A stretch of 64,000 bases of DNA from IMG/VR virus record IMGVR_UViG_3300023174_004481, positions 1 through 64,000 of that record; one strand, given 5' to 3'. The notes below the pieces were generated by a model. That model was not told the DNA's origin. It did no database searches and worked only from the letters and a program-made list of their open reading frames with translations. The stretch comes from a virus. Position numbers and translations under genes: made by a program. Shown piece by piece: positions 16,837-49,717 of this stretch; within the stretch, counting starts at the first letter, position 1; the number at the start of each line of letters is the position of its first letter.

Positions 16837-17649
16837 ATGAGCCCAAAAATTAAACAACAAGATCAAACTGCTTCGATGGGAAGCTCCGCACTTTTCGATA
16901 CTAATATCAATATTGCGCCAGAATTAAATGAACCAGTACTAGAAGTAGTTCCTCCAAAACTTATCACAAGAAACAAATATGGTTTAATTGAAGATAAAAA
17001 TACCAATTATACATATAATGATGATGGTACTATTAATTGGCGTAAAATGGTTAAGCATGAATATCTAGTTCCTAATAGACAAAAAACACAAGAAACAGAT
17101 GTATCCAAATTAGAAGACAAAGATCTTCTTATTCTTCTTGGAGGAATCAAAGAACTTGCTCAGATCAGAGGTTATACTAGTGTTTCATACAAAGTAGTAG
17201 CTGCCAGCGAAAGCTATTTTGCTACTTCTTGTAAGATTACTTGGATTCCTAATTACGAAACAAATGGCAAGGTTATTGAATTCGAAGCTCTTGCTGATGC
17301 TACTTTAAATAATACTAAGAGTTTTGCTAGATACTTTTTAGCGGCAATTGCAGAGAATAGAGCCTTTGTAAGGTGTGTTCGTAATTTCTTAAAAATTAAT
17401 ATTGTTTCTCAAGAAGAATTAGGTGATGCTAAAATTCTTGAAGAAGCAGTGTCTTCAAATGAAAGTCCAACTTCTCCACAAGTTTTATTGGAGAAAGTTA
17501 TGAAAGAAAAAAAAATAACATTTGAAACTTTAAAAGAACGGTTATTAAAAGAAAAGTTTGAAAACGCAGAGAGTTTGAATTGTACTCAAGATATTCCAAA
17601 ATCTAAAATATTCGAACTAATAGAAAGAATTAAAAAGATTAAAAATTAA
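16837..17649 (+). CDS. Hypothetical protein, possible Rad52/Sak-like single-strand annealing protein
   Basis: AIAENRAFVRCVRNFL.I..VSQEEL resembles the 'AETRA..RA.R....I...S.EE' motif of phage annealing proteins; inferred. Confidence 0.45.
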   Translation: MSPKIKQQDQTASMGSSALFDTNINIAPELNEPVLEVVPPKLITRNKYGLIEDKNTNYTYNDDGTINWRKMVKHEYLVPNRQKTQETDVSKLEDKDLLILLGGIKELAQIRGYTSVSYKVVAASESYFATSCKITWIPNYETNGKVIEFEALADATLNNTKSFARYFLAAIAENRAFVRCVRNFLKINIVSQEELGDAKILEEAVSSNESPTSPQVLLEKVMKEKKITFETLKERLLKEKFENAESLNCTQDIPKSKIFELIERIKKIKN

Positions 17650-20600
17650 TTAATAAACGGTATATTATAATACGGTATTCTGACCGCAATATTATTTATG
17701 GTTGTCGCTAAATAACCTCTTGGTGTAGCTGGCAACGCTGCAGCTCCTCCAGCTGTGCCAACTGTCGTTCCAGTAATTCCAGTTATACTTATATCAGTTA
17801 TATTTGTTTTGCCAGAAATATATAAACCACTTGTAGGTGAAGCAAGTATTCTTGCGTAAATTTTACCAGCAGGATTATTTGCTGGTAGCACTGGGTAATT
17901 ATGATAAACCCCACTCCTTTTGTAAAAAAGTATACTAATATCATCTATTCCTATTAATCCACTATTCATTTCTAAAACTCCACTACTTATTTCAATATTA
18001 GGATCTGATTGGGTCCCGTTATCATAATATCCACCACTTGCATAATTATTATACTTAAATATAAAACTCTTAAAACCTTTATTAAAATTAAAATTATTTT
18101 GACCATAGTCATCTTGCATAGTAAATCTATATGCATTTAATTGAGAATAAAGATTCGTCGACACCGATCCCATTGATATATTAGATCCTCCATATAGTAC
18201 TATATTAGATGCACTTAATTGCATATCTGATCTAATAAGCTCTAAATTACCTCGAGTACCACCCGCACTAGTAGGATAAGAAGAGTTAGTTATATACCAA
18301 TTTCCTGTATTATAAATATCTCTTCTTAAACATCCACTAAGATCGCTTGCGCTAACTGTATTATCTAGATCATTTTGCAATGCAGTAGCCGAATCACTAT
18401 AACTTCCTAAAAACATTAAATTATTAAACACATTTCTATTATCACTAGAGTTATTCCATTTATATACTTGAGAAATGCCATTTGGAAGAGATCCATAATT
18501 TACTGCTATTGATGCCGTGCCAAGTCCAGTTTTATATACTCCAGTTTCCTCAAATCTTTGCGTATATCTATTTATTAAATTTTCTTCAAAATTCGAAGCA
18601 AATCTAAAAGCAGCCCATCCACTTTTGACAACAGCACCTGGAGTTTTTGAATTAATAACTGGTACACTAGTTGAAAAACTACCATTTGAAGTTGAATTAG
18701 CTTTTCTTACTTGTATACCATTATTATATAAATCAAGTATTACATCATAATTTGATTGTTTTGTAGCTTTAGTTAAATATGAATTTATACTTGCTGTAGT
18801 TAAAAGTCCAGTTTTTGATTCTTGGTCTGTGAAAAATACATAGCCATTTCCTACATCTTGAGGTGTTTGCGCTGAGATATAAATATTATTACTAGCAGTA
18901 ATATTGAGCACAGAGTTTGTGAAATTCATTCTAGGAACAATTGGGTTATTGTAAAAATATCCTTGTACATATCCATTAACTTGAGTATATGGCGCAGAAG
19001 ATACTGATGCTTGAGAAGTGTATTTAACGCCAGTTCTTTCTTTTGCATCTATGGCTAACCAAAATCCACTCATAGTATAATCTTTTAATATTAAAGCCAT
19101 TTCATCTGAATTAATTCCAGTGAACGCTGACAAACTATCAATATCATCTATATTTAAATTATATTGTCTTATAGTATTTTGCTGGGCAACAGCAGAACTA
19201 AATGTTCCAGTCCCAAAAGTTAATCTATAAGTTAAATCTAAATTGTTAAAATCTTTTACAGTTGGAGCTAAATTTTGTAAACTCCAATTGAAATTGAAAT
19301 TTGATCCAGCAAAAAGATTTGCGGCATTTAAAATAACACTAGATGGACTACCTCCATTATTATAATTAAAATTATTAAATACTAGTATGTTAGTTAAATC
19401 TTTTAAAGTTTCAGATACATATAGAAAATTTCCAGCTGTATAAGATCTAGAATAATAACCATCTGTACTTAAACCATAAATTCTAAAATAATAACGTGTA
19501 TTATTTTGACTTGGAATAAATCGTCCTGTAATTGGATTTACTGTAGTAGCTAAATTTGCAGTCTCAATTAAAAATGATTGGTTTGGCACAAGAACACTAA
19601 CACCTTTCAAATTAACTAGCTGTCTACCAAGATCTGCACTCGTAAAATCACTTCCAGCTTTCGCGTAAACTTTCCAAAAGCTTGTATCAAAATTAATTGT
19701 AGAAACTGGCACACCAATTGTATATTGTAAGTATAAATCGGTAATCAATTGAAAAGCCAATGAACTTGGATAACTTGCTTCTAATTGACTTGTTCCTTGT
19801 TCTAGTGGCGGAGCATCTGTTAAACTAATTCCAGATTCTACAAATAAGTATTTACTTGGGTTATGTTCAATTGCATTTATATTATATTTATTTCCTTCCA
19901 ATTCAGTTAATCCAATGACTCTGTAAAGTTCAGTTTCTAAATCTTGATTGTTAGTTGCATTTACTGCTACATTTATTGTCCATATAGCTCCAGTTTGTAA
20001 AATATAATTTGTTGAATCAAATACTTTATTCGTATTTAATTTAACTAAAGTTTTTTCTGGATCATAACCTACGGCTCCGACCATATTGCTTAGATTAAAT
20101 GTTCCAGATTGTATTTCTGGTCTTTGATAACTTGAAACAAAATCTGAATAATTTGTTCCAGCAACTCTATAAGTTGGGGTTAAAATTTCAAAATTAAATT
20201 GATTAGCGCCCCTAGATGATATATATGAATTTATTTTATTATATTCGCCATCTAATATAAAACTATGAGTTCCATTTTCAAGAGATATACCCAACACTCT
20301 TCCACCCAATCTATTTAAAACTCTGTTTGAATCTTGAATTTTTATTAAATCTCCAGGTTTTAAATACAGAGCGTCTAATCCTGCGGTAAAATCAACAGTT
20401 TCTGTTTCTAATTGTTCGCTAGCTAAAGCCCATCTTCCAAGTCTATAAGCTTGACCTCGACTAGTACAACCAAAAGCTGTAAGTTCTAATTTTCTAATTC
20501 CATATTTTCTAACTGCATCTGGATCTTCTACATATTCAACTACTGGTTTAGCAAAATTAGTCATATCATTATATCTTACTACCGCAATACTATTTCTTAC

Positions 20601-22478
20601 CTTTTTGCTACTACTAGAATAGTTAAAGTCTCCATTTTCTACATTAGCATTAGTAAATAAAACAAATGGATCTTGAGGTATATCAGCAATTGCATAAATT
20701 GATCCATTCGCATAGTAAGACATTCCTCTAAATATACTAGCAAAATCATTTAATAAATTAAAAGCATCAGAAAAATCATTTATAATTGCATTACAAGTAA
20801 ATCTTGGTTCTACACCACCATAACCATCAGAAACTAAAGTATCGCAATATCTTGAAATTTTATATAAATTCCATTTATCTACATTATAACTTTCTATGTA
20901 TTTACCTAATCCATATCTAGTGTTTGTTAAAAGATCATAATAACACCATACAGGATTATCTGTCCATTTTAATTCAGCACTAAAAGTACCATCCCAATCT
21001 CCAGTATAAGTTTTTTTAATTGTATCATAATTAGATGGCACTTTGACTTTTAATAAATTAACATCATATGATCTACTTGGTACATCTTGAAAATAATCAG
21101 TAGTAAATAAATTTTTAAAAATAGCAACTTTTGGATATATATATTGTTCAGAAAAAACTTCAGTTATAGCATGCACGCTACACGAATCTCTCAAATTTAA
21201 TACTGTACTATCTTGTTTAGTTCTTTCAATTTGAACTCTCCACCCAAGATGACTTTTCTCATCTGCTTTAAAATAAGGACTTAAATCAAAAGTAAAAGTA
21301 TCTATAAATCCACTACTTATTTTACCTTTTGATTGTTTATTTTCGCTTATAACAATAGATGGACCACTTGTAGTTAATTTAATTATTTTTATATTGTATG
21401 TTATATCTCGATCTCTTATGTCTCCTAAAGTTTGCGAAATTTTGACTGTTTGTCCACAACCTAAATTAAAATCTTGTCGATCAATATTTGGATCATTTTG
21501 TTGATCAAATAAATTATCAATTTTTATTGCAACTATAAAATTACTAACATCTGTACTTTTGAAATCATAAGATTTTTTAAATCCTGGTCCATATTTTAAA
21601 ATATCTCCTATAGATAATGTTCTAGTTGCATTAGATAAAGATTTATTTCCTTGTAAATTACTCTGTAAAGAGCTTGGCGCTATTTGATTTCCATAATCAT
21701 ATCTAAAATTTATAGAAGAATAATTATATTGACCATTTTCATCTACTACTGGAACATTTCTCCAAAAAACAGATTGTAAATATCCACCTATATAAGGAGT
21801 AAAATTAGCAGAATCCCAGCCAATATTTCCAACTCTACCTGCATAATTATATTTTCCACTCACCAAACCTTCTATAGGTCCTTCACAAATTAAATCTGTT
21901 ACTTCTGTTTCGGTTCTTGATATCGCTCTTGAAATACCAGGTTTATCTTTAATACCTTCTGTTTCTTCTTTTGGAGTATGCGGATCTGGAGGAGGGCTTG
22001 GATAACATGGTGGTGGTCCTCCTTTATTATGTACAAAAATATCTTCTGCAATATAAGTATGATATTTCTCTACTGTAAAATTATAAACAGTATATTCTTT
22101 ATCAATAATTTCTATTTTATCAATTTTTAATTTTTCGTTAAATCTACTTATGATTAAATCAGTTTGAATAAAATTTTTAATTTCAATAAATTCATTATTT
22201 TGATTTAAAAATGGATGATTTGGAGTAGTCCGAATTTTCTTATCTTTGAAAAATATATCTATAACTTTTTCATTTTCATGTATAAATGTATTTTCAACTT
22301 TACTAATTTTTATAGATAAGTCTTTATCGAAACAAAATACTAAATCTCCAATTTTAATATCTTCAATATTTTTATATCCAAAAGGAGTATATATTTTTGT
22401 TCCAGCTACAAAACATCCTGCTCCTCTAATAATTTTAGGATATATTTTTTTTCTATTATTTTGCTCTAATTTTTCCAT
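17646..22478 (-). CDS. Tail tip / host-specificity protein (lambda gpJ-like) with N-terminal Hint domain
   Basis: HTPKE, DLICEGPIEGL, WDGTF..KWTDNPVWCYYDLLTNTRYGLG, YCD..V.DG.GG.EPRFTCN, AFGCTSRGQAYRLGRW, LKPGDLI. Confidence 0.92.
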   Translation of the reverse strand: MEKLEQNNRKKIYPKIIRGAGCFVAGTKIYTPFGYKNIEDIKIGDLVFCFDKDLSIKISKVENTFIHENEKVIDIFFKDKKIRTTPNHPFLNQNNEFIEIKNFIQTDLIISRFNEKLKIDKIEIIDKEYTVYNFTVEKYHTYIAEDIFVHNKGGPPPCYPSPPPDPHTPKEETEGIKDKPGISRAISRTETEVTDLICEGPIEGLVSGKYNYAGRVGNIGWDSANFTPYIGGYLQSVFWRNVPVVDENGQYNYSSINFRYDYGNQIAPSSLQSNLQGNKSLSNATRTLSIGDILKYGPGFKKSYDFKSTDVSNFIVAIKIDNLFDQQNDPNIDRQDFNLGCGQTVKISQTLGDIRDRDITYNIKIIKLTTSGPSIVISENKQSKGKISSGFIDTFTFDLSPYFKADEKSHLGWRVQIERTKQDSTVLNLRDSCSVHAITEVFSEQYIYPKVAIFKNLFTTDYFQDVPSRSYDVNLLKVKVPSNYDTIKKTYTGDWDGTFSAELKWTDNPVWCYYDLLTNTRYGLGKYIESYNVDKWNLYKISRYCDTLVSDGYGGVEPRFTCNAIINDFSDAFNLLNDFASIFRGMSYYANGSIYAIADIPQDPFVLFTNANVENGDFNYSSSSKKVRNSIAVVRYNDMTNFAKPVVEYVEDPDAVRKYGIRKLELTAFGCTSRGQAYRLGRWALASEQLETETVDFTAGLDALYLKPGDLIKIQDSNRVLNRLGGRVLGISLENGTHSFILDGEYNKINSYISSRGANQFNFEILTPTYRVAGTNYSDFVSSYQRPEIQSGTFNLSNMVGAVGYDPEKTLVKLNTNKVFDSTNYILQTGAIWTINVAVNATNNQDLETELYRVIGLTELEGNKYNINAIEHNPSKYLFVESGISLTDAPPLEQGTSQLEASYPSSLAFQLITDLYLQYTIGVPVSTINFDTSFWKVYAKAGSDFTSADLGRQLVNLKGVSVLVPNQSFLIETANLATTVNPITGRFIPSQNNTRYYFRIYGLSTDGYYSRSYTAGNFLYVSETLKDLTNILVFNNFNYNNGGSPSSVILNAANLFAGSNFNFNWSLQNLAPTVKDFNNLDLTYRLTFGTGTFSSAVAQQNTIRQYNLNIDDIDSLSAFTGINSDEMALILKDYTMSGFWLAIDAKERTGVKYTSQASVSSAPYTQVNGYVQGYFYNNPIVPRMNFTNSVLNITASNNIYISAQTPQDVGNGYVFFTDQESKTGLLTTASINSYLTKATKQSNYDVILDLYNNGIQVRKANSTSNGSFSTSVPVINSKTPGAVVKSGWAAFRFASNFEENLINRYTQRFEETGVYKTGLGTASIAVNYGSLPNGISQVYKWNNSSDNRNVFNNLMFLGSYSDSATALQNDLDNTVSASDLSGCLRRDIYNTGNWYITNSSYPTSAGGTRGNLELIRSDMQLSASNIVLYGGSNISMGSVSTNLYSQLNAYRFTMQDDYGQNNFNFNKGFKSFIFKYNNYASGGYYDNGTQSDPNIEISSGVLEMNSGLIGIDDISILFYKRSGVYHNYPVLPANNPAGKIYARILASPTSGLYISGKTNITDISITGITGTTVGTAGGAAALPATPRGYLATTINNIAVRIPYYNIPFIN
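22026..22415 (-). other. Hint (mini-intein/BIL-like) domain, 130 aa, inside gpJ
   Basis: CFVAGTKI (block A), TTPNHPF (block B), VYNFTV..YHTY (block F), FVHN (block G). No endonuclease; +1 residue is Lys. Confidence 0.9.
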
Positions 22479-27506: not shown

Positions 27507-28358
27507 TTATATGAAATATTTTAAAGATATTCTAGAGTTTATAACATCATTAACCTTAACATTGTAATTTTTGCTCATTAAAAATCCAGATTTTAATTGG
27601 AAATTAATTCCAGTTGGATTGGTTTGTATACCAGATAATCCAGATAATATAATATTAGTATCTTCTATTATGTTATTTATATTTCTTATGTTTAAATTAT
27701 ATACGTCTAATTCCGCTGATAAATCAATCTGCTCTTTGCTAAATACTACTCTATGTGGATAAGTTTCATTGATATTATAAATGGGGGTTATATCTGCTTT
27801 GTATGTAAAATCTAATTTTTTAACGTCATGATTACTAAATTCATTAAAATTATCATTAAAATATATATTAGCCAATGATCCATGTGCATATGAATTTGTA
27901 TTTACTCCAGTAACTCCAGTATAACTTATTGGTAAAGATCCAGTAAAACTATTACTTCCAAAATTAAAAAATACAAATTCTGCTTGATTTTTAACTAAAG
28001 AATGAGGATCAATTGACATACCAAAAGATCTTAAATATCCAGATGTAAAAGTACTATTTCCACATTTTATTGAAAAATTATTTTTTTGACCAGATTGTAA
28101 TAAAATATTATTTAAAAAAATATAATCATTTGGTATTTGACTTATAAAATTAATAGATATTACAGAAGTTGCACCATTACTATTAACTCCTCTGTATGGA
28201 GTTTTTCTTTCTATTTGAAATGAAAAATCTGCATTTGGATTTACATCTATAACTAAATTATCTGCTACGCAATCATATGAATAGTAATTAGTTTCGGAAG
28301 AACCACTTGTAGTAAAACGATCTATCTGTATTGGAAGATTTTTATATGAATAAAACAT
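27507..28358 (-). CDS. Tail-tube-like paralogue
   Basis: GYLRSFGMSIDPHSLVKNQAEF and HGS motifs shared with 28358..29173. Confidence 0.55.
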   Translation of the reverse strand: MFYSYKNLPIQIDRFTTSGSSETNYYSYDCVADNLVIDVNPNADFSFQIERKTPYRGVNSNGATSVISINFISQIPNDYIFLNNILLQSGQKNNFSIKCGNSTFTSGYLRSFGMSIDPHSLVKNQAEFVFFNFGSNSFTGSLPISYTGVTGVNTNSYAHGSLANIYFNDNFNEFSNHDVKKLDFTYKADITPIYNINETYPHRVVFSKEQIDLSAELDVYNLNIRNINNIIEDTNIILSGLSGIQTNPTGINFQLKSGFLMSKNYNVKVNDVINSRISLKYFI

Positions 28359-29173
28359 TAATAATATTTTGTAAATCTTCTTCTAGTTGTAGTAATTCCA
28401 TCTACAGCGCTACTTCCTTCTATGGTCGTGCTCTGTGCACCACTTATTAGCATCGAATAACTTGATCCAGGGCAACACAATGGCTCAATTGCAAAAGTTA
28501 TAACTCTCGAATCTCCAGTATAAACTACTCTTCTATACAAAGCTTCACTCATCTCGAACTCTTCCGATGCACCATTGAATTTTACGGTTCTTGGTATTTG
28601 AGTATTTAAAACTTTAACTGGTAGATATTCTGCTTTAAAACTATAAGATAAATTAAATAGATTAGTATAATCTTCCGTTTGCCCAAGAAAACTATTTGGA
28701 GTGGCATTAATTGCGGCTCTTGATCCATGTAAAAAATTAGAATTTAAAGATTGTTGAGTTGTGTACGTTCCAATCTGTCCAGTTGGAGGAAAAAAAGTAA
28801 AGAACGATGCTTGTGCATTTACAATTTTATCAGGCTCTACTGTAAAAGAAAAACTATCTAAATAACATCCAGTGAATCTTAAACCAGCAATATCTATATC
28901 TCCACTTGGCGGAACATCTGTAAAATTATTTTTCATATTATCTATGAAGCTTTTTACAAGATCATCATTTTGAATATTGTATTGAAAAGAAATATTATGA
29001 GTAACTACATCATTAGGTACTTGAGAATAAAATGCTTGTCTCTTTCCAAGTGATTTAACTTGTGTTATATTATTGGTTGTAGAGAATGTTATATTTGTTG
29101 CTGGTATTCCCCCAGTAACTCCATTACATAACAATCTAACTGGTGTATATTTAAAAGAATAAACGTCACTCAT
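28358..29173 (-). CDS. Tail-tube-like paralogue
   Basis: CYLDSFSFTVEPDKIVNAQASF, FLHGS. GTGTAA motif 9 nt before the ATG. Confidence 0.55.
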   Translation of the reverse strand: MSDVYSFKYTPVRLLCNGVTGGIPATNITFSTTNNITQVKSLGKRQAFYSQVPNDVVTHNISFQYNIQNDDLVKSFIDNMKNNFTDVPPSGDIDIAGLRFTGCYLDSFSFTVEPDKIVNAQASFFTFFPPTGQIGTYTTQQSLNSNFLHGSRAAINATPNSFLGQTEDYTNLFNLSYSFKAEYLPVKVLNTQIPRTVKFNGASEEFEMSEALYRRVVYTGDSRVITFAIEPLCCPGSSYSMLISGAQSTTIEGSSAVDGITTTRRRFTKYY

Positions 29174-29217
29174 TAGTTAAAATTACACTTTAAAGTGTTT
29201 ATTAAGAATATAAAATT

Positions 29218-29315
29218 AGCCATATTATTCTGTCGTTGCTTACGCAATGTCCTGTTATTTTGTAAAGTTTCTCCCGAAAACAGTTAAAATATTCAGTCTG
29301 ATAGGTTTTTTAAAT
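29218..29315 (-). ncRNA. Predicted 98-nt exon released as a circular RNA by the permuted ribozyme
   Basis: Lies between the putative omega-G (29316) and GGCU (U at 29218), which pairs with the 5'-terminal guide GAAUUGGCC via a G.U wobble. Contains two GNRA-capped hairpins (GGGA, GUAA). Inferred. Confidence 0.55.
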
Positions 29316-29573
29316 CAATTTATTAATATTTTCAATTTTAAATGAAAATTTACTTATTGTTACCAATAAGATTGGACTATATCTTATTTATATTGCTATA
29401 AATTCGGGCGCTCGTGTCTCTTTTATTGTTGCGGTAACTCAAGAATTAGTCTCTACACCTTCTTATATCTTTATATCCGCGATATAAGCTTGGCTCGGTA
29501 TTGTCCTAAATATGTCAAAGAACTATTTTTTATTTTTAGGGTTTCCACCGAATTCACCCGATAGGGCCAATTC
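29316..29573 (-). ncRNA. Group I intron ribozyme (IA-like core, no P2, no ORF), intergenic
   Basis: P3 UCGGGUG (29561-29555)/CGCCCGA (29410-29404); P4 UUCGGU/ACCGAG; P5 CCUAAA/UUUAGG; P6a CUUAUAUC/GAUAUAAG; R element GUAGAGACUA (29456-29447); P8 AUUUAUA-GCAA-UAUAAAU; S element AAGAUAUAGUCC (29385-29374); P9 CUUAUUG-GUAA-CAAUAAG; P9.1 hairpin; putative omega-G at 29316. Confidence 0.92.
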
Positions 29574-29581
29574 ATTAGTAT

Positions 29582-29587
29582 TTACAC
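29582..29587 (-). promoter_or_regulatory. GTGTAA motif immediately upstream of the ribozyme
   Basis: Same motif as before many virion genes. An 8-9 nt offset puts the start at G29573/A29572, the first base of the guide strand. Confidence 0.65.
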
Positions 29588-29615
29588 CAATTATTGGTTA
29601 TTTATTTTAATAAAT

Positions 29616-32600
29616 TTAACAAAGAGAGGGTAATGATATAAAATTAGCGGGCCAAGGTGAGGTTGAAAATGGATAACCATTTTTGCTTGGACAATAATAA
29701 ATATTAGCATTATAAGGCATTGGGAAATAGCCAACGCTAGGTGCATTTCCAAGGAAGTATACGTTTACAGGCCCAGGTGGTATATGAGCAAAAGCATAAT
29801 CTTGGATACTTATTATTGTAGATGGAATAGTAATATTAGTTAATCCTGTACAATTAGTAAATGCATTGGTTGCTATAACTAATAAATTATTACCCAAATT
29901 TATACCAGTTAATTCGGAACAATTAACAAATGCGGCTACTCTAATATATTGAATACCATTTCCCATGTTCGCATATTTTAATTTACCACAATTAGCAAAT
30001 GCCATATCTTGAATATCTATGAGATTATTTCCAATAGTATTTACTCCTGTTAATTCAGGACAATCGGCAAATGCAACTGTTTCCAAGTTTATTACGCTAT
30101 TAGGTATAGTTAAAGATTTTAATTTTTGACAAGAACGAAATGCGCCGAGTCCTATATTAGATACTCCATTTCCAAGATTTATATTTTCTAATTCTATACA
30201 TGACCTAAACGCATACATTCCAATACCAGTGCAAGTATCAGGTATAGTTAAAGATTTTAATTTTTCACAAGAATCAAATGCACGGGTTTTAATATTATTT
30301 AGAGTATTTGAAAGAACAACGCCACTTAAGTTAGAGCAATAAGCAAATACGTCTTCATTAATTGTAGTTATGCCGTTTCCAATTATAACACCAGTTAATC
30401 CTGTGCAATAATAAAAAGCGTTAGACTCAATACTAGTAACAGTATTTGGAATTGTAATATTTTTAATTTTTACATAAGGATTAGACGCAAAAGCATAATC
30501 TTGAATAGTATTCACTTCCCTTCCAATATCAACTCCAGTTAAATCTTTACCAAAAGTAACACCATAGTCACTAAATGTAATTGTGGAATTCGAATGTGTA
30601 GAAACACTTCCATTTGAATAATAAAAAGTAGTGTTGGCAGGACCAGGAGTAGTTGTTGTAGTTGTAGTTGTAGTAGTTGGTCCAACTGTAGTTGTAGTGC
30701 TAGTTGTTACCCCAGGACAAGAAGCGCTATAGCTATAATATACTCCATAACTACAATCTTCTGTATTTAAAATTTTAACATTAACAGTTAAATTATTTAT
30801 TCCTGCTAATTTTGCAAATGAGAATGTTCCAGAAGAATTTGTTGTTCTTGATAATATTTTTACGCTATTATAATACAATTCAAACAATAATTCATATCCA
30901 TTATCAGAAGAGTATGTAAAAATTATATTTCCAGTAGAAGTAGTTCCTAAATTTAGTAATCTTCTATGATTACAATAATAATCTACAAAATTAGTATCAT
31001 CTGAATCAGTATAAGTAATTCCACAAGATCCATTTAATTCTATTGGAGCAAGAGTTGTTGTTGTTGTAGTCGTTGTTGTTGTGGTTGTGGTTGTTGTTCT
31101 AGAACAATTTATACTATATTCATAATTATATTCATCACAAAATCCGTCTTCTGGACCATCAATAGCTACAATAACTTTATCATACGCATCATTTTTAATA
31201 AAAGAATATGAACCATTATTATTTGAAATTATTGATGTTCCATTATTAGAACTAACATAAGAGGTTCCATCCACAATATCAACTTTAATAAGTAATACGC
31301 TATTAGTTACATTTAAATTATAAATATAAAATGTTAAATTAGAAGTGCTGTACCAATTAAAAGTTAATATTCCATTTTGACTTCCAACATTTACTTCTCT
31401 AGCACCATAACATCTTCCAGGTAATGTTTTTCCATAATTCCATATTTCATCTGATGTATAATATGTTGTATTACATGTTCCAAAAGTACAATAAGGCGCG
31501 AATGGATGTCTTGGAGTCGTTGTTGTAGTTGTGGTAGTTGTAGTTGTTGTCGTAGGAGGAGGAGTCGTGCTAGTGGTAGTAGTAGTTGTGGTCGTTGTCG
31601 TAGTAGTTATAATATAAGTATAAAATTTAGGATGACTTTTTCCTACAATCATAAAATATGCAACATCGTCTGATGCAATTGCAATCCAATTATCATTTTG
31701 TGAAGAAATTGTTACCTCTTGAAATGGTTCATCATTTCTGCTTACTAATATTTTATTTGTATCAGGTAAAACTAATGCTGGTTTGTTAATGGATATAACT
31801 CTAACTATGCCATCTTGCCATGATGTATTTCTATTATAATTAATAGTTTTTAAATCCGATAAAATATATGGACTAAAAGTTGAGCTGGTTTTCTTTTCCC
31901 AAGAATCGCCATAATCACTTATATAGTAAGATTCACTTGCAGACGTAATATTTAAATTTGTAAATTCATTTATAGTATTGTATATGCCTTTACTAATTTG
32001 ATAACCATTACTAACAATTGGAGATTCACTAGTTTGAACCCAATTTATTCCATCTTCTGACCAAGCTGTTCTACCCAAAGAATCTATCACAATAAAACGA
32101 CTATCTTTCGTAGCCACTCCAACCCAATATCCAACAAAAGGTAATGATCGTTTTGTCCAATTTATTCCATCTGTAGAAGTGGCGTAATTTACTCCATAAG
32201 CAAAACTTTCTCCACTATACGAAACCGCTACCCAAAGATTTAATGTATTATTATAAGCCGCAGCAGACCAATTTAAAGATGGCATTGAATTAGTAAAAGA
32301 CCAATCTCTTCCATTTGATGAATACAATGCAAAATTACAATTTCCATATAAATTAATATTACTATCTCCACAAAGTATTAAAAATTTTCCATTACCATAA
32401 CAAATTCTTTTAACTTTACATTGATCTGGTAGAGTTGGTAAACTAGCACTAGTCCAATCAATTTTATTTTCTGTGATATAAACTTTATTGTTATTTCCTA
32501 AAACTATCCAAGTATCAGTTGTCCCATTTTTTCCAAAAACAGCATCTATTGGTACTCCAGATGGATAAGGGGTCGTACTTGTGGTAGTGGTTGTTGTCGT

Positions 32601-33215
32601 AGTAGTTGTAGTAGTTGTGGTAGTTGTAGTCGATGTTATTGCATTACAAGGATCTATAGTTGTAGGAGTATTCGCAGCAACACATTGATTAAATATTTTT
32701 CGATCTGTAATTATATCATAAATTGTTATCCAATTCAATGCAGGATCACATTGTCCCAAACCAAAACCAGCATCTTCATTATTTTGTAATGCACATCTTA
32801 ATTCAAATATTAATTGACCATCTACAGAACTAGAAGAAATTTGATTAATTTGTAATGGATTTAAAAGCAAATAATCATAAAGATCTCCACCACTAAGGTC
32901 TATATTATTTAAACTTACTTTTCCTAAATTTATATTATTAATATAAATATAAAAATCAGAACCATCAGAATATCTGTATGCTGGACATGGCCCATTTGCA
33001 TGATCATGTCTTATTTCAATATTTAAATTAGATAAACATGGATTTGGAGTTGTGGTTGTGGTTGTGGTGGTTGTAGTTGTATTAGGTCCAATGGTAGTTG
33101 TAGTAGTAGTTGTGGTTGGAATTGGACCGCAACAGCTTAAATAATCATTGCCATAAATATCTACTACTCCTGGTGGTAAGTATATTCTATTATCTGGGCC
33201 ATTAATACAATCCAT
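29616..33215 (-). CDS. Modular virion/adhesin-like protein: poly-Thr linkers, beta-propeller-like repeats, C-terminal BspA-type leucine-rich repeats
   Basis: Multiple Thr tracts; SSNGRDW/STDGINW/SEDGINW Asp-box-like repeats; about ten IPxxVxxIxxxAFxxCxxL repeats. Confidence 0.75.
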   Translation of the reverse strand: MDCINGPDNRIYLPPGVVDIYGNDYLSCCGPIPTTTTTTTTIGPNTTTTTTTTTTTPNPCLSNLNIEIRHDHANGPCPAYRYSDGSDFYIYINNINLGKVSLNNIDLSGGDLYDYLLLNPLQINQISSSSVDGQLIFELRCALQNNEDAGFGLGQCDPALNWITIYDIITDRKIFNQCVAANTPTTIDPCNAITSTTTTTTTTTTTTTTTTTSTTPYPSGVPIDAVFGKNGTTDTWIVLGNNNKVYITENKIDWTSASLPTLPDQCKVKRICYGNGKFLILCGDSNINLYGNCNFALYSSNGRDWSFTNSMPSLNWSAAAYNNTLNLWVAVSYSGESFAYGVNYATSTDGINWTKRSLPFVGYWVGVATKDSRFIVIDSLGRTAWSEDGINWVQTSESPIVSNGYQISKGIYNTINEFTNLNITSASESYYISDYGDSWEKKTSSTFSPYILSDLKTINYNRNTSWQDGIVRVISINKPALVLPDTNKILVSRNDEPFQEVTISSQNDNWIAIASDDVAYFMIVGKSHPKFYTYIITTTTTTTTTTTTSTTPPPTTTTTTTTTTTTTPRHPFAPYCTFGTCNTTYYTSDEIWNYGKTLPGRCYGAREVNVGSQNGILTFNWYSTSNLTFYIYNLNVTNSVLLIKVDIVDGTSYVSSNNGTSIISNNNGSYSFIKNDAYDKVIVAIDGPEDGFCDEYNYEYSINCSRTTTTTTTTTTTTTTTLAPIELNGSCGITYTDSDDTNFVDYYCNHRRLLNLGTTSTGNIIFTYSSDNGYELLFELYYNSVKILSRTTNSSGTFSFAKLAGINNLTVNVKILNTEDCSYGVYYSYSASCPGVTTSTTTTVGPTTTTTTTTTTPGPANTTFYYSNGSVSTHSNSTITFSDYGVTFGKDLTGVDIGREVNTIQDYAFASNPYVKIKNITIPNTVTSIESNAFYYCTGLTGVIIGNGITTINEDVFAYCSNLSGVVLSNTLNNIKTRAFDSCEKLKSLTIPDTCTGIGMYAFRSCIELENINLGNGVSNIGLGAFRSCQKLKSLTIPNSVINLETVAFADCPELTGVNTIGNNLIDIQDMAFANCGKLKYANMGNGIQYIRVAAFVNCSELTGINLGNNLLVIATNAFTNCTGLTNITIPSTIISIQDYAFAHIPPGPVNVYFLGNAPSVGYFPMPYNANIYYCPSKNGYPFSTSPWPANFISLPSLC

Positions 33216-49357: not shown

Positions 49358-49646
49358 TTTCATCTTTAAATTCCATTTTAATAAATTCAAAATTTTTCTC
49401 TATCTCTCTTATAGATTCATTTCCTATATCAAGTATTTTCTTTCTTAAGTAATTATATCTATTATCATCAAAATAATCTATATTTTTTAATGTATTTGAA
49501 TCAATTTTATTATTAAGCTTTTCTAGCATGGATTTATGATCTTCTTGAATATCTTCTATTAAATTAAGATATCTTTTATATAAATTAACTAAACTTTTAT
49601 GTATTTGAAAAGATACGTAATCTTTAACTTTATTATCGTTTTGCAT
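49347..49646 (-). CDS. Hypothetical protein
   Basis: 99-aa ORF preceded by GTGTAA (49685-49690) and AGG-rich leader. Confidence 0.6.
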   Translation of the reverse strand: MQNDNKVKDYVSFQIHKSLVNLYKRYLNLIEDIQEDHKSMLEKLNNKIDSNTLKNIDYFDDNRYNYLRKKILDIGNESIREIEKNFEFIKMEFKDENEK

Positions 49647-49691
49647 AACTTATACCTTTTGACCGACCTTTTACCTACATATGTTTACACT

Positions 49692-49717
49692 AAAAACCCC
49701 GCCGAAGCGGGGCTTTT
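49692..49717 (-). terminator. Rho-independent terminator after the major tail gene
   Basis: AAAAGCCCCGC-TTCG-GCGGGGTTTTT: GC stem, cUUCGg tetraloop, U tract. Confidence 0.9.

What the first reader, a model, noticed from the sequence alone, without database searches (positions are those of the whole stretch)
29208..29590. Stand-alone, apparently permuted group I ribozyme predicted to make a 98-nt circular RNA
Seen: an intact group I core (P3-P9, R and S elements) on the - strand of an intergenic gap. It has no homing endonuclease and interrupts nothing: the upstream gene has already stopped at 29616 and the sequence after the terminal G reads AUU UAA. A GTGTAA motif would start the RNA at ~29573, so there is no 5' exon. 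The first bases, GAAUUGGCC (29573-29565), instead pair with GGCUAAUUU (29221-29213), which lies ~100 nt downstream of the omega-G. That pairing places G29568 against U29218, the wobble that defines group I 5' splice sites. UGAAU (29574-29570) can alternatively pair with AUUUA just after the omega-G, a P10. P2 is absent and P8 is short, which is self-consistent. Established: the order guide-core-omegaG-exon-5' splice site is the geometry of engineered permuted/trans-ribozyme circularisation constructs. Inference: this is a natural group I intron permuted at L1 that circularises 29315-29218 (junction ...AUAUGGCU|AUUUAAAA...) late in infection.
Basis: partly seen in the sequence, partly recalled or inferred. 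Interest (0 to 1): 0.95.

Follow-up and report, generated by a model that had tools for sequence, protein, structure and literature searches.

The report
Guide-first group I ribozyme in phage
Between two tail genes of a freshwater phage lies a complete self-splicing-type RNA enzyme that interrupts no gene and whose cut site lies behind it instead of in front, so it probably cuts its own transcript there and may close the 98 bases in between into an RNA ring.

Summary
A full-length group I core (RF00028, 66 bits) lies on the minus strand at 29630-29353, between a BspA-LRR tail protein gene and a 271-aa gene.

I collected 37 distinct relatives. 23 are complete copies with a GTGTAA-type box, and all 23 are intergenic. 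In 5 of the 23 the upstream gene is on the other strand, so no coding 5' exon exists there.

GTGTAA is this phage's gene-start box, and the ribozyme has its own.

The key claim is that the 5' guide pairs with a site downstream of the terminal G across a G.U wobble. Covariation supports it:
- 22 of 23 loci carry the exact complement of their own guide class downstream.
- Only 2 of 69 cross-class tests hit, and 0 of 92 on the opposite strand.
- The tree needs 3-5 independent guide switches.

The ring itself is not shown. P10 is not supported across the family, the cargo is not conserved, and RNA contigs show no joint.

The window also has an upstream look-alike site.

This scan noted similar elements in other phages. 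I found none in print.

The parts
29582..29587 (-). GTGTAA box, the putative promoter or RNA-start signal of the ribozyme unit
   Evidence: The window has 15 GTGTAA hits against about 43 expected from composition. 14 are intergenic. 10 lie 8-30 nt before the start of an ORF of 100 aa or more, and one more follows a terminator and precedes a 99-aa ORF. A GTGTA[AT] box precedes the guide in 23 of 33 family copies.
29565..29573 (-). 5' guide (internal guide sequence, the 3' strand of P1), with the wobble G at 29568
   Evidence: Read. The guide block covaries with the downstream site in the family.
29570..29574 (-). Candidate P10 strand (UGAAU)
   Evidence: It forms 5 pairs with 29315-29311 in this window. 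This is not supported by covariation across the family.
29316..29562 (-). Catalytic core, P3 to P9.1, ending at the terminal G29316
   Evidence: RF00028 match at 66 bits. The alignment of 23 copies gives 51 predicted pairs, 24 of them with compensatory changes. Conservation stops at ...(A/U)UG in all 23.
29218..29315 (-). 98-nt insert ('cargo'), the stretch that would become the ring
   Evidence: It folds no better than shuffles (z +1.24). Only a 24-nt stretch is shared with L097.
29236..29247 (-). Small hairpin UUGC-GUAA-GCAA inside the cargo. It lies within the 24-nt stretch shared with L097, where the loop reads GCAA.
   Evidence: Read; blastn hit between the two cargoes. Its role is unknown.
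29213..29221 (-). Downstream substrate site GGCU|AAUUU (the 5' strand of P1). The predicted cut is between U29218 and A29217.
   Evidence: It forms 9 contiguous pairs with the guide. The class-specific site is present downstream in 22 of 23 loci. U.G wobble is found in 22 of 23.
29183..29188 (-). Second GTGTAA box, 9 nt before the ATG of the 271-aa gene
   Evidence: The same layout is seen in L078, L097, L064/83/87 and L079.
29636..29648 (-). Upstream copy of the site (GCU|AAUUUUAUAU) in the last codons of the 1199-aa gene, a possible alternative conventional 5' splice site after U29646
   Evidence: Exact 13-mer found twice. 16/18 direct repeat, 428 nt apart. An exact repeat of 13 or more arises in 46 of 2000 simulated regions.
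29616..33215 (-). Upstream gene: 1199-aa Thr-rich protein with BspA-type LRR repeats
   Evidence: ORF. Pfam LRR_5, E 3e-73.
28358..29173 (-). Downstream gene: 271-aa protein of no known family
   Evidence: ORF. No Pfam or PHROG hit. Homologues follow the ribozyme in 6 loci including the window.

Best explanation
This is a stand-alone, promoter-driven group I ribozyme with its substrate helix split. The guide strand of P1 sits at the RNA's 5' end, and the strand carrying the reactive U lies about 100 nt behind the terminal G.

Proposed course:
1. Transcription starts at or near the GTGTAA box (inferred).
2. The guide 29573-29565 folds back onto 29221-29213, placing U29218 opposite G29568. This pairing is shown by covariation.
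3. A free guanosine nucleotide bound in P7 attacks after U29218. This cuts the transcript and leaves the extra G on the downstream RNA. The step is inferred from group I chemistry.
4. The new 3' end of U29218 then attacks after G29316 and closes 29315-29218 into a 98-nt ring, releasing the ribozyme. This step is inferred and is the least secure.
For: The core is real and under selection:
- RF00028 match at 66 bits.
- 24 of 51 predicted pairs have compensatory changes in 23 distinct copies.
- Their neighbouring proteins are only 23-36% identical at the extremes.

No conventional exon:
- All 23 copies are intergenic.
- The upstream gene is on the opposite strand in 5 of 23.
- A locus's own-class site occurs in the upstream flank in 1 of 23.

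Guide-site pairing:
- The own-class complement plus UAA is found downstream in 22 of 23 loci, against 2 of 69 cross-class tests and 0 of 92 on the opposite strand.
- The matching pairs are GCC/GGU, GCCC/GGGU, GGCC/GGCU, GGUCC/GGACU, GCCA/UGGU and CCUU/AAGG.
- Positions -3 to -1 pair in 23 of 23 loci, the wobble is U.G in 22 of 23, and +1 is A-U in 21 of 23.
- Own guides beat permuted guides in all but 3 of 10000 permutations.
- The core tree needs 5 guide-class switches (3 is the minimum possible).

Terminal G: the conserved block ends in UG in all 23 copies, 11-13 nt after P9.1. This is my reading.

Own start signal. In L079 a terminator hairpin and a second box separate the unit from the next gene.

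Engineered ribozymes of this layout make rings (abstract of PMC10415121).
Against: - P10, which would align the ring-closing step, is not supported: 3.48 bp with the own guide against 3.37 bp with others; 3816 of 10000 permutations reach it; displaced controls give 3.2-4.3 bp.
- In 19 of 23 loci the helix is only 5-8 bp and is not significant on its own (45-300 of 300 shuffles reach it; two loci scored 0 under the strict rule).
- L079 has C instead of U at the reactive position.
- Cargoes share no sequence between subfamilies, and the window's cargo is not structured (z +1.24), so no use for a ring is evident.
- The window's downstream gene has its own GTGTAA box, so cutting is not needed to express it.
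- The sites were located with motifs derived from guide classes that I defined. Many loci are related, so the number of independent events is small (3-5, and only 3 tree branches are well supported).
- Where the RNA really starts is unknown.
Confidence: 0.5

Rival explanations
1. Same guide-first architecture, but only cutting matters. The ribozyme cleaves at U|A (or hydrolyses) to set the 5' end of the downstream message or to separate transcripts, and no ring, or only a by-product ring, forms.
For: - The site lies 5-13 nt before the next gene's start codon in 10 of 23 loci. Three more (L070, L092, L106) have it 7-8 nt before what is probably the true ATG; that is my reading, because one search reports negative distances to the start codon my script picked.
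- These phages' own gene-start boxes also leave very short leaders.
- P10 is not supported, and the cargo is not conserved.
Against: - The terminal G and the fixed linker before it are conserved in all 23 copies, by my reading. The first step alone does not need them.
- In 8 of 23 loci (window, L097, L078, L075, L064/83/87, L079) the site is 44 nt or more from the ATG. In all of these but L075 the gene has its own box, and in L079 a terminator comes first.
- Cargo length is held to 84-149 nt in 22 of 23 loci.
Confidence: 0.25
2. In this window the element also, or instead, works as a conventional intron on read-through transcripts of the 1199-aa gene. The 5' splice site would be after U29646 and the 3' splice site after G29316, changing the protein's end from ...WPANFISLPSLC to ...WPAI.
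For: - The upstream site GCU|AAUUU gives 8 contiguous pairs with the same guide.
- It sits exactly at a codon boundary, and the sequence after G29316 reads AUU UAA in frame.
- A 16/18 direct repeat links the two sites.
- No terminator-like site lies on that strand between the gene and the ribozyme.
Against: - It is not conserved. L078, the syntenic relative, has no such site, and own-class sites occur upstream in 1 of 23 loci.
- The repeat is only modestly unlikely by chance (46 of 2000 simulated regions).
- The loop of such a P1 would be 67 nt and would contain the GTGTAA box.
Confidence: 0.1
3. The guide-site pairing is a purely structural or regulatory helix, for example masking the next gene's ribosome-binding region, or the element is an inactive relic of a 5'-truncated intron.
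For: - Several sites are purine-rich and lie close to the start codon (AAGGU, AGGGU, AGGACU).
- Helices are short in most loci.
- No catalytic activity has been shown.
Against: - A relic would not keep 24 compensated pairs and invariant R and S elements across hosts this diverged.
- A plain helix would not keep U opposite G at one fixed position in 22 of 23 loci.
- In 8 loci the site is 44 nt or more from the start codon.
Confidence: 0.07

Closest known systems
Engineered group I circularisation constructs: ribozyme, then insert, then a guide-complementary site (Tetrahymena-based system, PMC10415121, abstract read), and permuted intron-exon (PIE) constructs (recalled; named only in review listings)
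   Same: The order of parts matches: guide, core, terminal G, insert, reactive U. The expected products match: a ring of the insert plus a linear ribozyme.
   Different: Those are man-made. Here the layout is natural, promoter-driven, conserved across phages, breaks the RNA only in the P1 loop, and its ring has not been observed.
ND5-717 giant group I intron of mushroom-coral mitochondria (Chi et al. 2019, PMC6545197, abstract read)
   Same: It is a natural group I RNA processed from a permuted precursor by back-splicing through a circular exon-containing RNA.
   Different: That intron interrupts a protein gene. It is permuted because of where the transcript begins within a giant P8 insert, and its purpose is to join coding exons. 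The phage element interrupts nothing and carries a short, variable, non-coding insert.
Circularly permuted group II ribozymes of bacteria (Roth et al. 2021, PMC8637638, passages read)
   Same: They are stand-alone, interrupt no ORF, are permuted self-splicing ribozymes that release small RNA rings, and their function is unknown.
   Different: They belong to a different ribozyme class with different chemistry (branching), and they are bacterial rather than phage elements.
Canonical ORF-less phage group I introns (Rfam RF00028)
   Same: They share the same core, R and S elements, a P1 with a U.G wobble, and a terminal G.
   Different: Canonical introns have the U-bearing strand upstream and restore a gene. 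Here it lies downstream and no gene is restored.
Lariat-capping (GIR1) ribozyme (known to me from passages of PMC8637638 citing Nielsen 2005 and Meyer 2014)
   Same: It is a group I-derived ribozyme in front of an ORF whose reaction creates the 5' end of the downstream message.
   Different: GIR1 makes a 3-nt lariat by branching and has lost P1 and guanosine chemistry. This family keeps P1, the wobble pair and the terminal G. No GIR1 match was listed in the permissive Rfam scan.

Membership tests
Group I intron (Rfam RF00028) | Conserved catalytic core P3-P9 with R and S elements | tested here: met
   66 bits against a cut-off of 50, full model. R and S elements are invariant in 23 copies. 24 of 51 pairs are compensated.
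Group I intron (Rfam RF00028) | P1 helix formed by an internal guide, with a U.G wobble at the reactive bond | tested here: met
   Met, but with the U strand downstream of the core. 9 bp in the window. U.G in 22 of 23 copies, and the flanking pairs covary.
Group I intron (Rfam RF00028) | Terminal guanosine at the 3' end of the core | tested here: met
   The conserved block ends in UG in 23 of 23 copies, 11-13 nt after P9.1. Positions were read by hand.
Group I intron (Rfam RF00028) | Interrupts a gene whose exons are rejoined | tested here: not met
   The upstream ORF is complete. All 23 copies are intergenic, and 5 have divergent upstream genes. So this is a group I ribozyme but not an intron in the usual sense.
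Group I intron (Rfam RF00028) | P10 pairing between the guide and the sequence after the terminal G | tested here: inconclusive
   5 bp in the window, but no family-wide signal. P10 is weak in some canonical introns too (recalled).
Group I intron (Rfam RF00028) | Guanosine-dependent self-cleavage and ligation | not testable with these tools
   Needs in vitro transcription.
Permuted or guide-first ring-forming group I layout (engineered constructs; coral ND5-717) | 3' splice site upstream of the 5' splice site on one transcript | tested here: met
   G29316 precedes U29218 by 98 nt. The same order is found in 22 of 23 relatives.
Permuted or guide-first ring-forming group I layout (engineered constructs; coral ND5-717) | Head-to-tail joined (circular) product | tested here: inconclusive
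   No joint appears in contigs of 3 RNA runs. Contigs cannot show absence. Raw reads were not available to me.
Lariat-capping ribozyme (GIR1) | GIR1-type fold detectable by its Rfam model | tested here: not met
   The permissive scan of 28900-29900 (E up to 10) listed RF00028 and five weak unrelated matches, and no GIR1.

The most novel reading that the evidence does not exclude
Freshwater phages carry a family of natural guide-first group I ribozymes that act as small gene-expression devices. One transcript yields three products:
- a free ribozyme;
- a covalently closed RNA ring of about 85-150 nt with lineage-specific sequence;
- a downstream message whose 5' end is made by the ribozyme and carries an added guanosine nucleotide.

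In this window the same guide could additionally splice read-through transcripts of the tail-protein gene and so change that protein's last residues.
Probability: 0.4. Interest if true: 0.9.

Novelty: new variant of a known kind. Interest (0 to 1): 0.82.

Why it matters
Group I ribozymes are textbook selfish introns. A conserved, promoter-driven version that interrupts nothing and targets a site behind itself would be a second natural case, after the permuted group II ribozymes, of a self-splicing RNA recruited to make RNA rings or to process messages.

It would be the natural counterpart of the designs now engineered to make circular RNA. It offers compact natural scaffolds (about 250 nt, no P2) for that purpose.

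It also raises the question of what short, fast-evolving rings, or ribozyme-made message ends, do during phage infection.

The covariation found here makes this directly testable with a single in vitro transcript.

Tried and rejected
Searches that found nothing:
- The default Rfam scan of the window found nothing. Only the permissive scan found the core.
- blastn of 29150-29700 against cultured phage records gave no match.
- A first 23-nt core pattern found nothing in viral contigs, because relatives differ at one base. Later patterns worked.
- Pfam and PHROGs gave no hit for 9 downstream proteins.
- No tRNA was found in the window.

Ideas rejected:
- P10 covariation is not supported.
- Cargo as a peptide gene: reading from the NTG that holds the terminal G gives 2-36 aa with no conservation.
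- Cargo as a conserved structured RNA: there is no shared sequence between subfamilies, and the window's z-score is +1.24.
- The orphan GTGTAA at 49690 as a second RNA gene: it is a terminator, then the box, then a 99-aa ORF.
- Non-GTGTAA family members as conventional introns: in 7 of 10 the downstream frame is closed well after the core, 2 more have their next ORF on the other strand, and L071 may be conventional. I did not resolve their sites.

Rows dropped: of the 37 distinct cores, 4 were left out before the counts. L065 and L077 had their contig end inside the core, and in L068 and L085 the P3/P4 motif was not found. The 10 copies without a box were analysed apart.

RNA data:
- Contigs of three lake metatranscriptome runs cover only the core (29308-29560 at most).
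- No joint was reported.
- No contig bridges G29316 by the tool's 31-letter rule.
- Loose ends of 14, 20 and 40 letters run on past it. By my reading, one resembles the start of L097's cargo.
- These libraries may contain DNA, and contigs cannot show absence.

Supplements of the papers were not opened.

Full report
WHAT IS THERE

On the minus strand, between the stop of a 1199-aa Thr-rich BspA-LRR protein gene (29616) and the start of a 271-aa gene (29173), lies a complete group I catalytic core. The default Rfam scan of the window missed it. The permissive scan and the genome search both give RF00028, model positions 1-253, 66 bits against a cut-off of 50, at 29630-29353. The window is a 72.5-kb viral record rated 47% complete, and this is its only copy. 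This covers the GTGTAA box at 29587-29582, the guide at 29573-29565, the site at 29221-29213 with G29568 opposite U29218, G29316 followed by AUUUAA, and the 5-bp P10 candidate.

THE FAMILY

The neighbouring 271-aa protein led to two viral contigs with the same ribozyme at the same place (73 bits). Their upstream gene ends in a different domain. Core patterns then gave 58, 32 and 19 loci.

- After removing duplicates there are 37 distinct cores including the window.
- 33 of them have both ends on their contig.
- 23 of those carry a GTGTA[AT] box shortly before the guide.
- The alignment of these 23 has invariant R and S elements.
- Its consensus fold has 51 pairs, 24 of them with compensatory changes.

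This is a ribozyme under selection, not a relic.

CONTEXT

- All 23 copies are intergenic, with a same-strand gene behind them (L100, whose contig gave no same-strand ORF, is the exception).
- In 5 of 23 (L062, L069, L072, L084 and L019) the upstream gene is on the other strand, so no coding 5' exon can exist.
- The downstream genes fall into two families of no known function. One is about 900 aa (15 loci, 23-94% identity). The other is the window's type (6 loci, 36-95% identity). There is one singleton.
- The upstream neighbours fall into at least five unrelated groups.

THE GTGTAA BOX

In the window, GTGTAA occurs 15 times against about 43 expected from composition.

- 14 of the 15 hits are intergenic.
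- 10 lie 8-30 nt before the start of an ORF of 100 aa or more.
- One more follows an intrinsic terminator and precedes a 99-aa ORF.

It is therefore a gene-start signal of this phage, probably a promoter element, and the ribozyme has its own. In most relatives the box lies exactly 8 nt before the wobble G. The spacing is 13 nt in the window and L097. Nine copies have a hairpin inserted there. That the RNA starts at the box is an inference.

GUIDE AND DOWNSTREAM SITE

Each copy has, between the terminal G and the next gene, a site of the form GG(N)U|AAA whose left half mirrors its own guide block:

| Guide block | Site |
|---|---|
| GCCUU | AAGGU |
| GCCCUU | AGGGU |
| GCCC | GGGU |
| GCCA | UGGU |
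| GGCC | GGCU |
| GGCCUU | AAGGCU |
| GGUCC | GGACU |

As a test I searched for each class's exact complement followed by UAA.

- It occurs downstream in 22 of 23 loci of that class.
- It occurs in 2 of 69 cross-class locus-motif tests.
- It occurs in 0 of 92 tests on the opposite strand.
- In the 280 nt upstream, the own-class motif occurs in 1 of 23 loci.

Position by position, -3 to -1 pair in 23 of 23 loci with several pair types, the reactive position is U opposite G in 22 of 23, and +1 is A-U in 21 of 23. Further positions pair in 6-18 of 23.

Own guides beat permuted guides in all but 3 of 10000 permutations. A tree of the cores, with the guide columns left out, needs 5 switches of guide class, where 3 is the minimum possible. 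Only 3 of its inner branches are well supported.

Results against:
- In 19 of 23 loci the helix is short and not significant alone.
- L079 has C instead of U at the reactive position.
- The guide classes and the positions of the terminal G were defined by me.

THE SECOND STEP

The conserved block ends in UG in all 23 copies, 11-13 nt after the P9.1 hairpin, and the sequences become unalignable after it. This is what a 3' splice site looks like, and the first step alone would not require it. Cargo length is 84-149 nt in 22 of 23 loci.

P10, however, shows no family signal. The mean helix is 3.48 bp with the own guide against 3.37 bp with other guides, 3816 of 10000 permutations reach that value, and displaced controls give 3.2-4.3 bp. 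It is 5 bp in the window but 2 bp in its closest relative, L097. Cargoes share nothing between subfamilies, encode no conserved peptide, and the window's cargo is not unusually structured. Ring closure is therefore plausible but unproven, and a ring's purpose is unknown.

RNA DATA

This neither supports nor counts against the ring.

AN EXTRA IN THIS WINDOW

A 16/18 direct repeat (13 exact), 428 nt apart, places a second guide-complementary site, GCU|AAUUU, in the last codons of the upstream gene. A repeat this long arises in 46 of 2000 simulated regions. It sits at a codon boundary. Joining it to the sequence after G29316 would read ...WPA-I-stop instead of ...WPANFISLPSLC-stop. No terminator-like site lies on that strand in between. 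The syntenic relative L078 lacks this site, so it is not the conserved function, but read-through transcripts could be spliced conventionally here.

MECHANISM

Shown:
- the core;
- its conservation;
- the absence of a conserved upstream exon;
- the guide-site pairing with a fixed U.G.

Inferred from group I chemistry:
- guanosine attack after U29218, which frees the downstream RNA with an added G;
- then attack of U29218 on the bond after G29316, giving a 98-nt ring and a free ribozyme.

In 10 loci (three more by my reading) the cut would fall 5-13 nt before the next start codon. In 8, including the window, it falls 44 nt or more before it; in all of these but L075 the gene has its own box, and in L079 a terminator comes first. 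That separability is why I favour a role for the ribozyme-cargo unit itself over mere message trimming.

WHAT IS KNOWN

My searches found:
- natural permuted group II ribozymes (PMC8637638, passages read);
- one natural group I back-splicing case, the coral mitochondrial ND5-717 intron, which calls itself the first (PMC6545197, abstract read);
- engineered ribozyme-insert-complement and permuted intron-exon systems (PMC10415121, abstract read; others as search listings only).

They found no stand-alone phage group I ribozyme of this layout. The library lacks most subscription journals.

This scan's earlier notes describe similar elements in other freshwater and marine phages. One of them claims an exact ring joint in environmental RNA. 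I could not check that and do not count it as evidence.

Noticed in passing
L070, L076, L079, L081, L086, L092, L094, L095, L106 (alignment A1, columns 1-100): In nine relatives the AGUUCUUUGA-type motif that sits in the P5 loop of the window's ribozyme is missing from P5. It appears instead in the loop of an extra hairpin between the GTGTAA box and the guide, as if a tertiary-contact module had been moved.
   Followed up: no
window 29546-29560 (RNA contigs of runs X15, X16 and X18): All four RNA contigs end, in RNA sense, at the start of P3/P4 and none reaches the guide. One high-depth contig of an L097-like relative carries sequencing adapter directly at that end. This may be an assembly break at variable sequence, a reverse-transcription stop, or a real RNA end.
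   Followed up: no
L079, between the ribozyme's site and the next gene: After the site (which has C instead of U) come a terminator-like hairpin with a T-run, then a GTGTAA box, then the gene. Here the ribozyme-cargo unit looks like a separate transcription unit.
   Followed up: partly
window 49644-49715 (minus strand): A strong intrinsic terminator is followed directly by a GTGTAA box and, 38 nt later, by a 99-aa ORF. The weak Rfam sRNA matches there only reflect the terminator.
   Followed up: yes
L063, L074, L093, L082, L088: Family members without a GTGTAA box have a GGCCC guide and a conserved GGGUC shortly after the core. They are intergenic as well, so they may be guide-first ribozymes with very short inserts in phages that use other start signals.
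   Followed up: partly
window 29585-29598 and L064/L083/L087 at the same place: A small hairpin (ACCAA-UAA-UUGGU in the window, ACCAU-AAA-AUGGU in the relatives) ends in the first bases of the GTGTAA box, with compensatory differences.
   Followed up: no
window 17646-22478 (minus strand): The gpJ-like tail tip protein carries an N-terminal Hint / pretoxin-HINT domain (Pfam PT-HINT, E 5e-12), as another first-stage note says.
   Followed up: no
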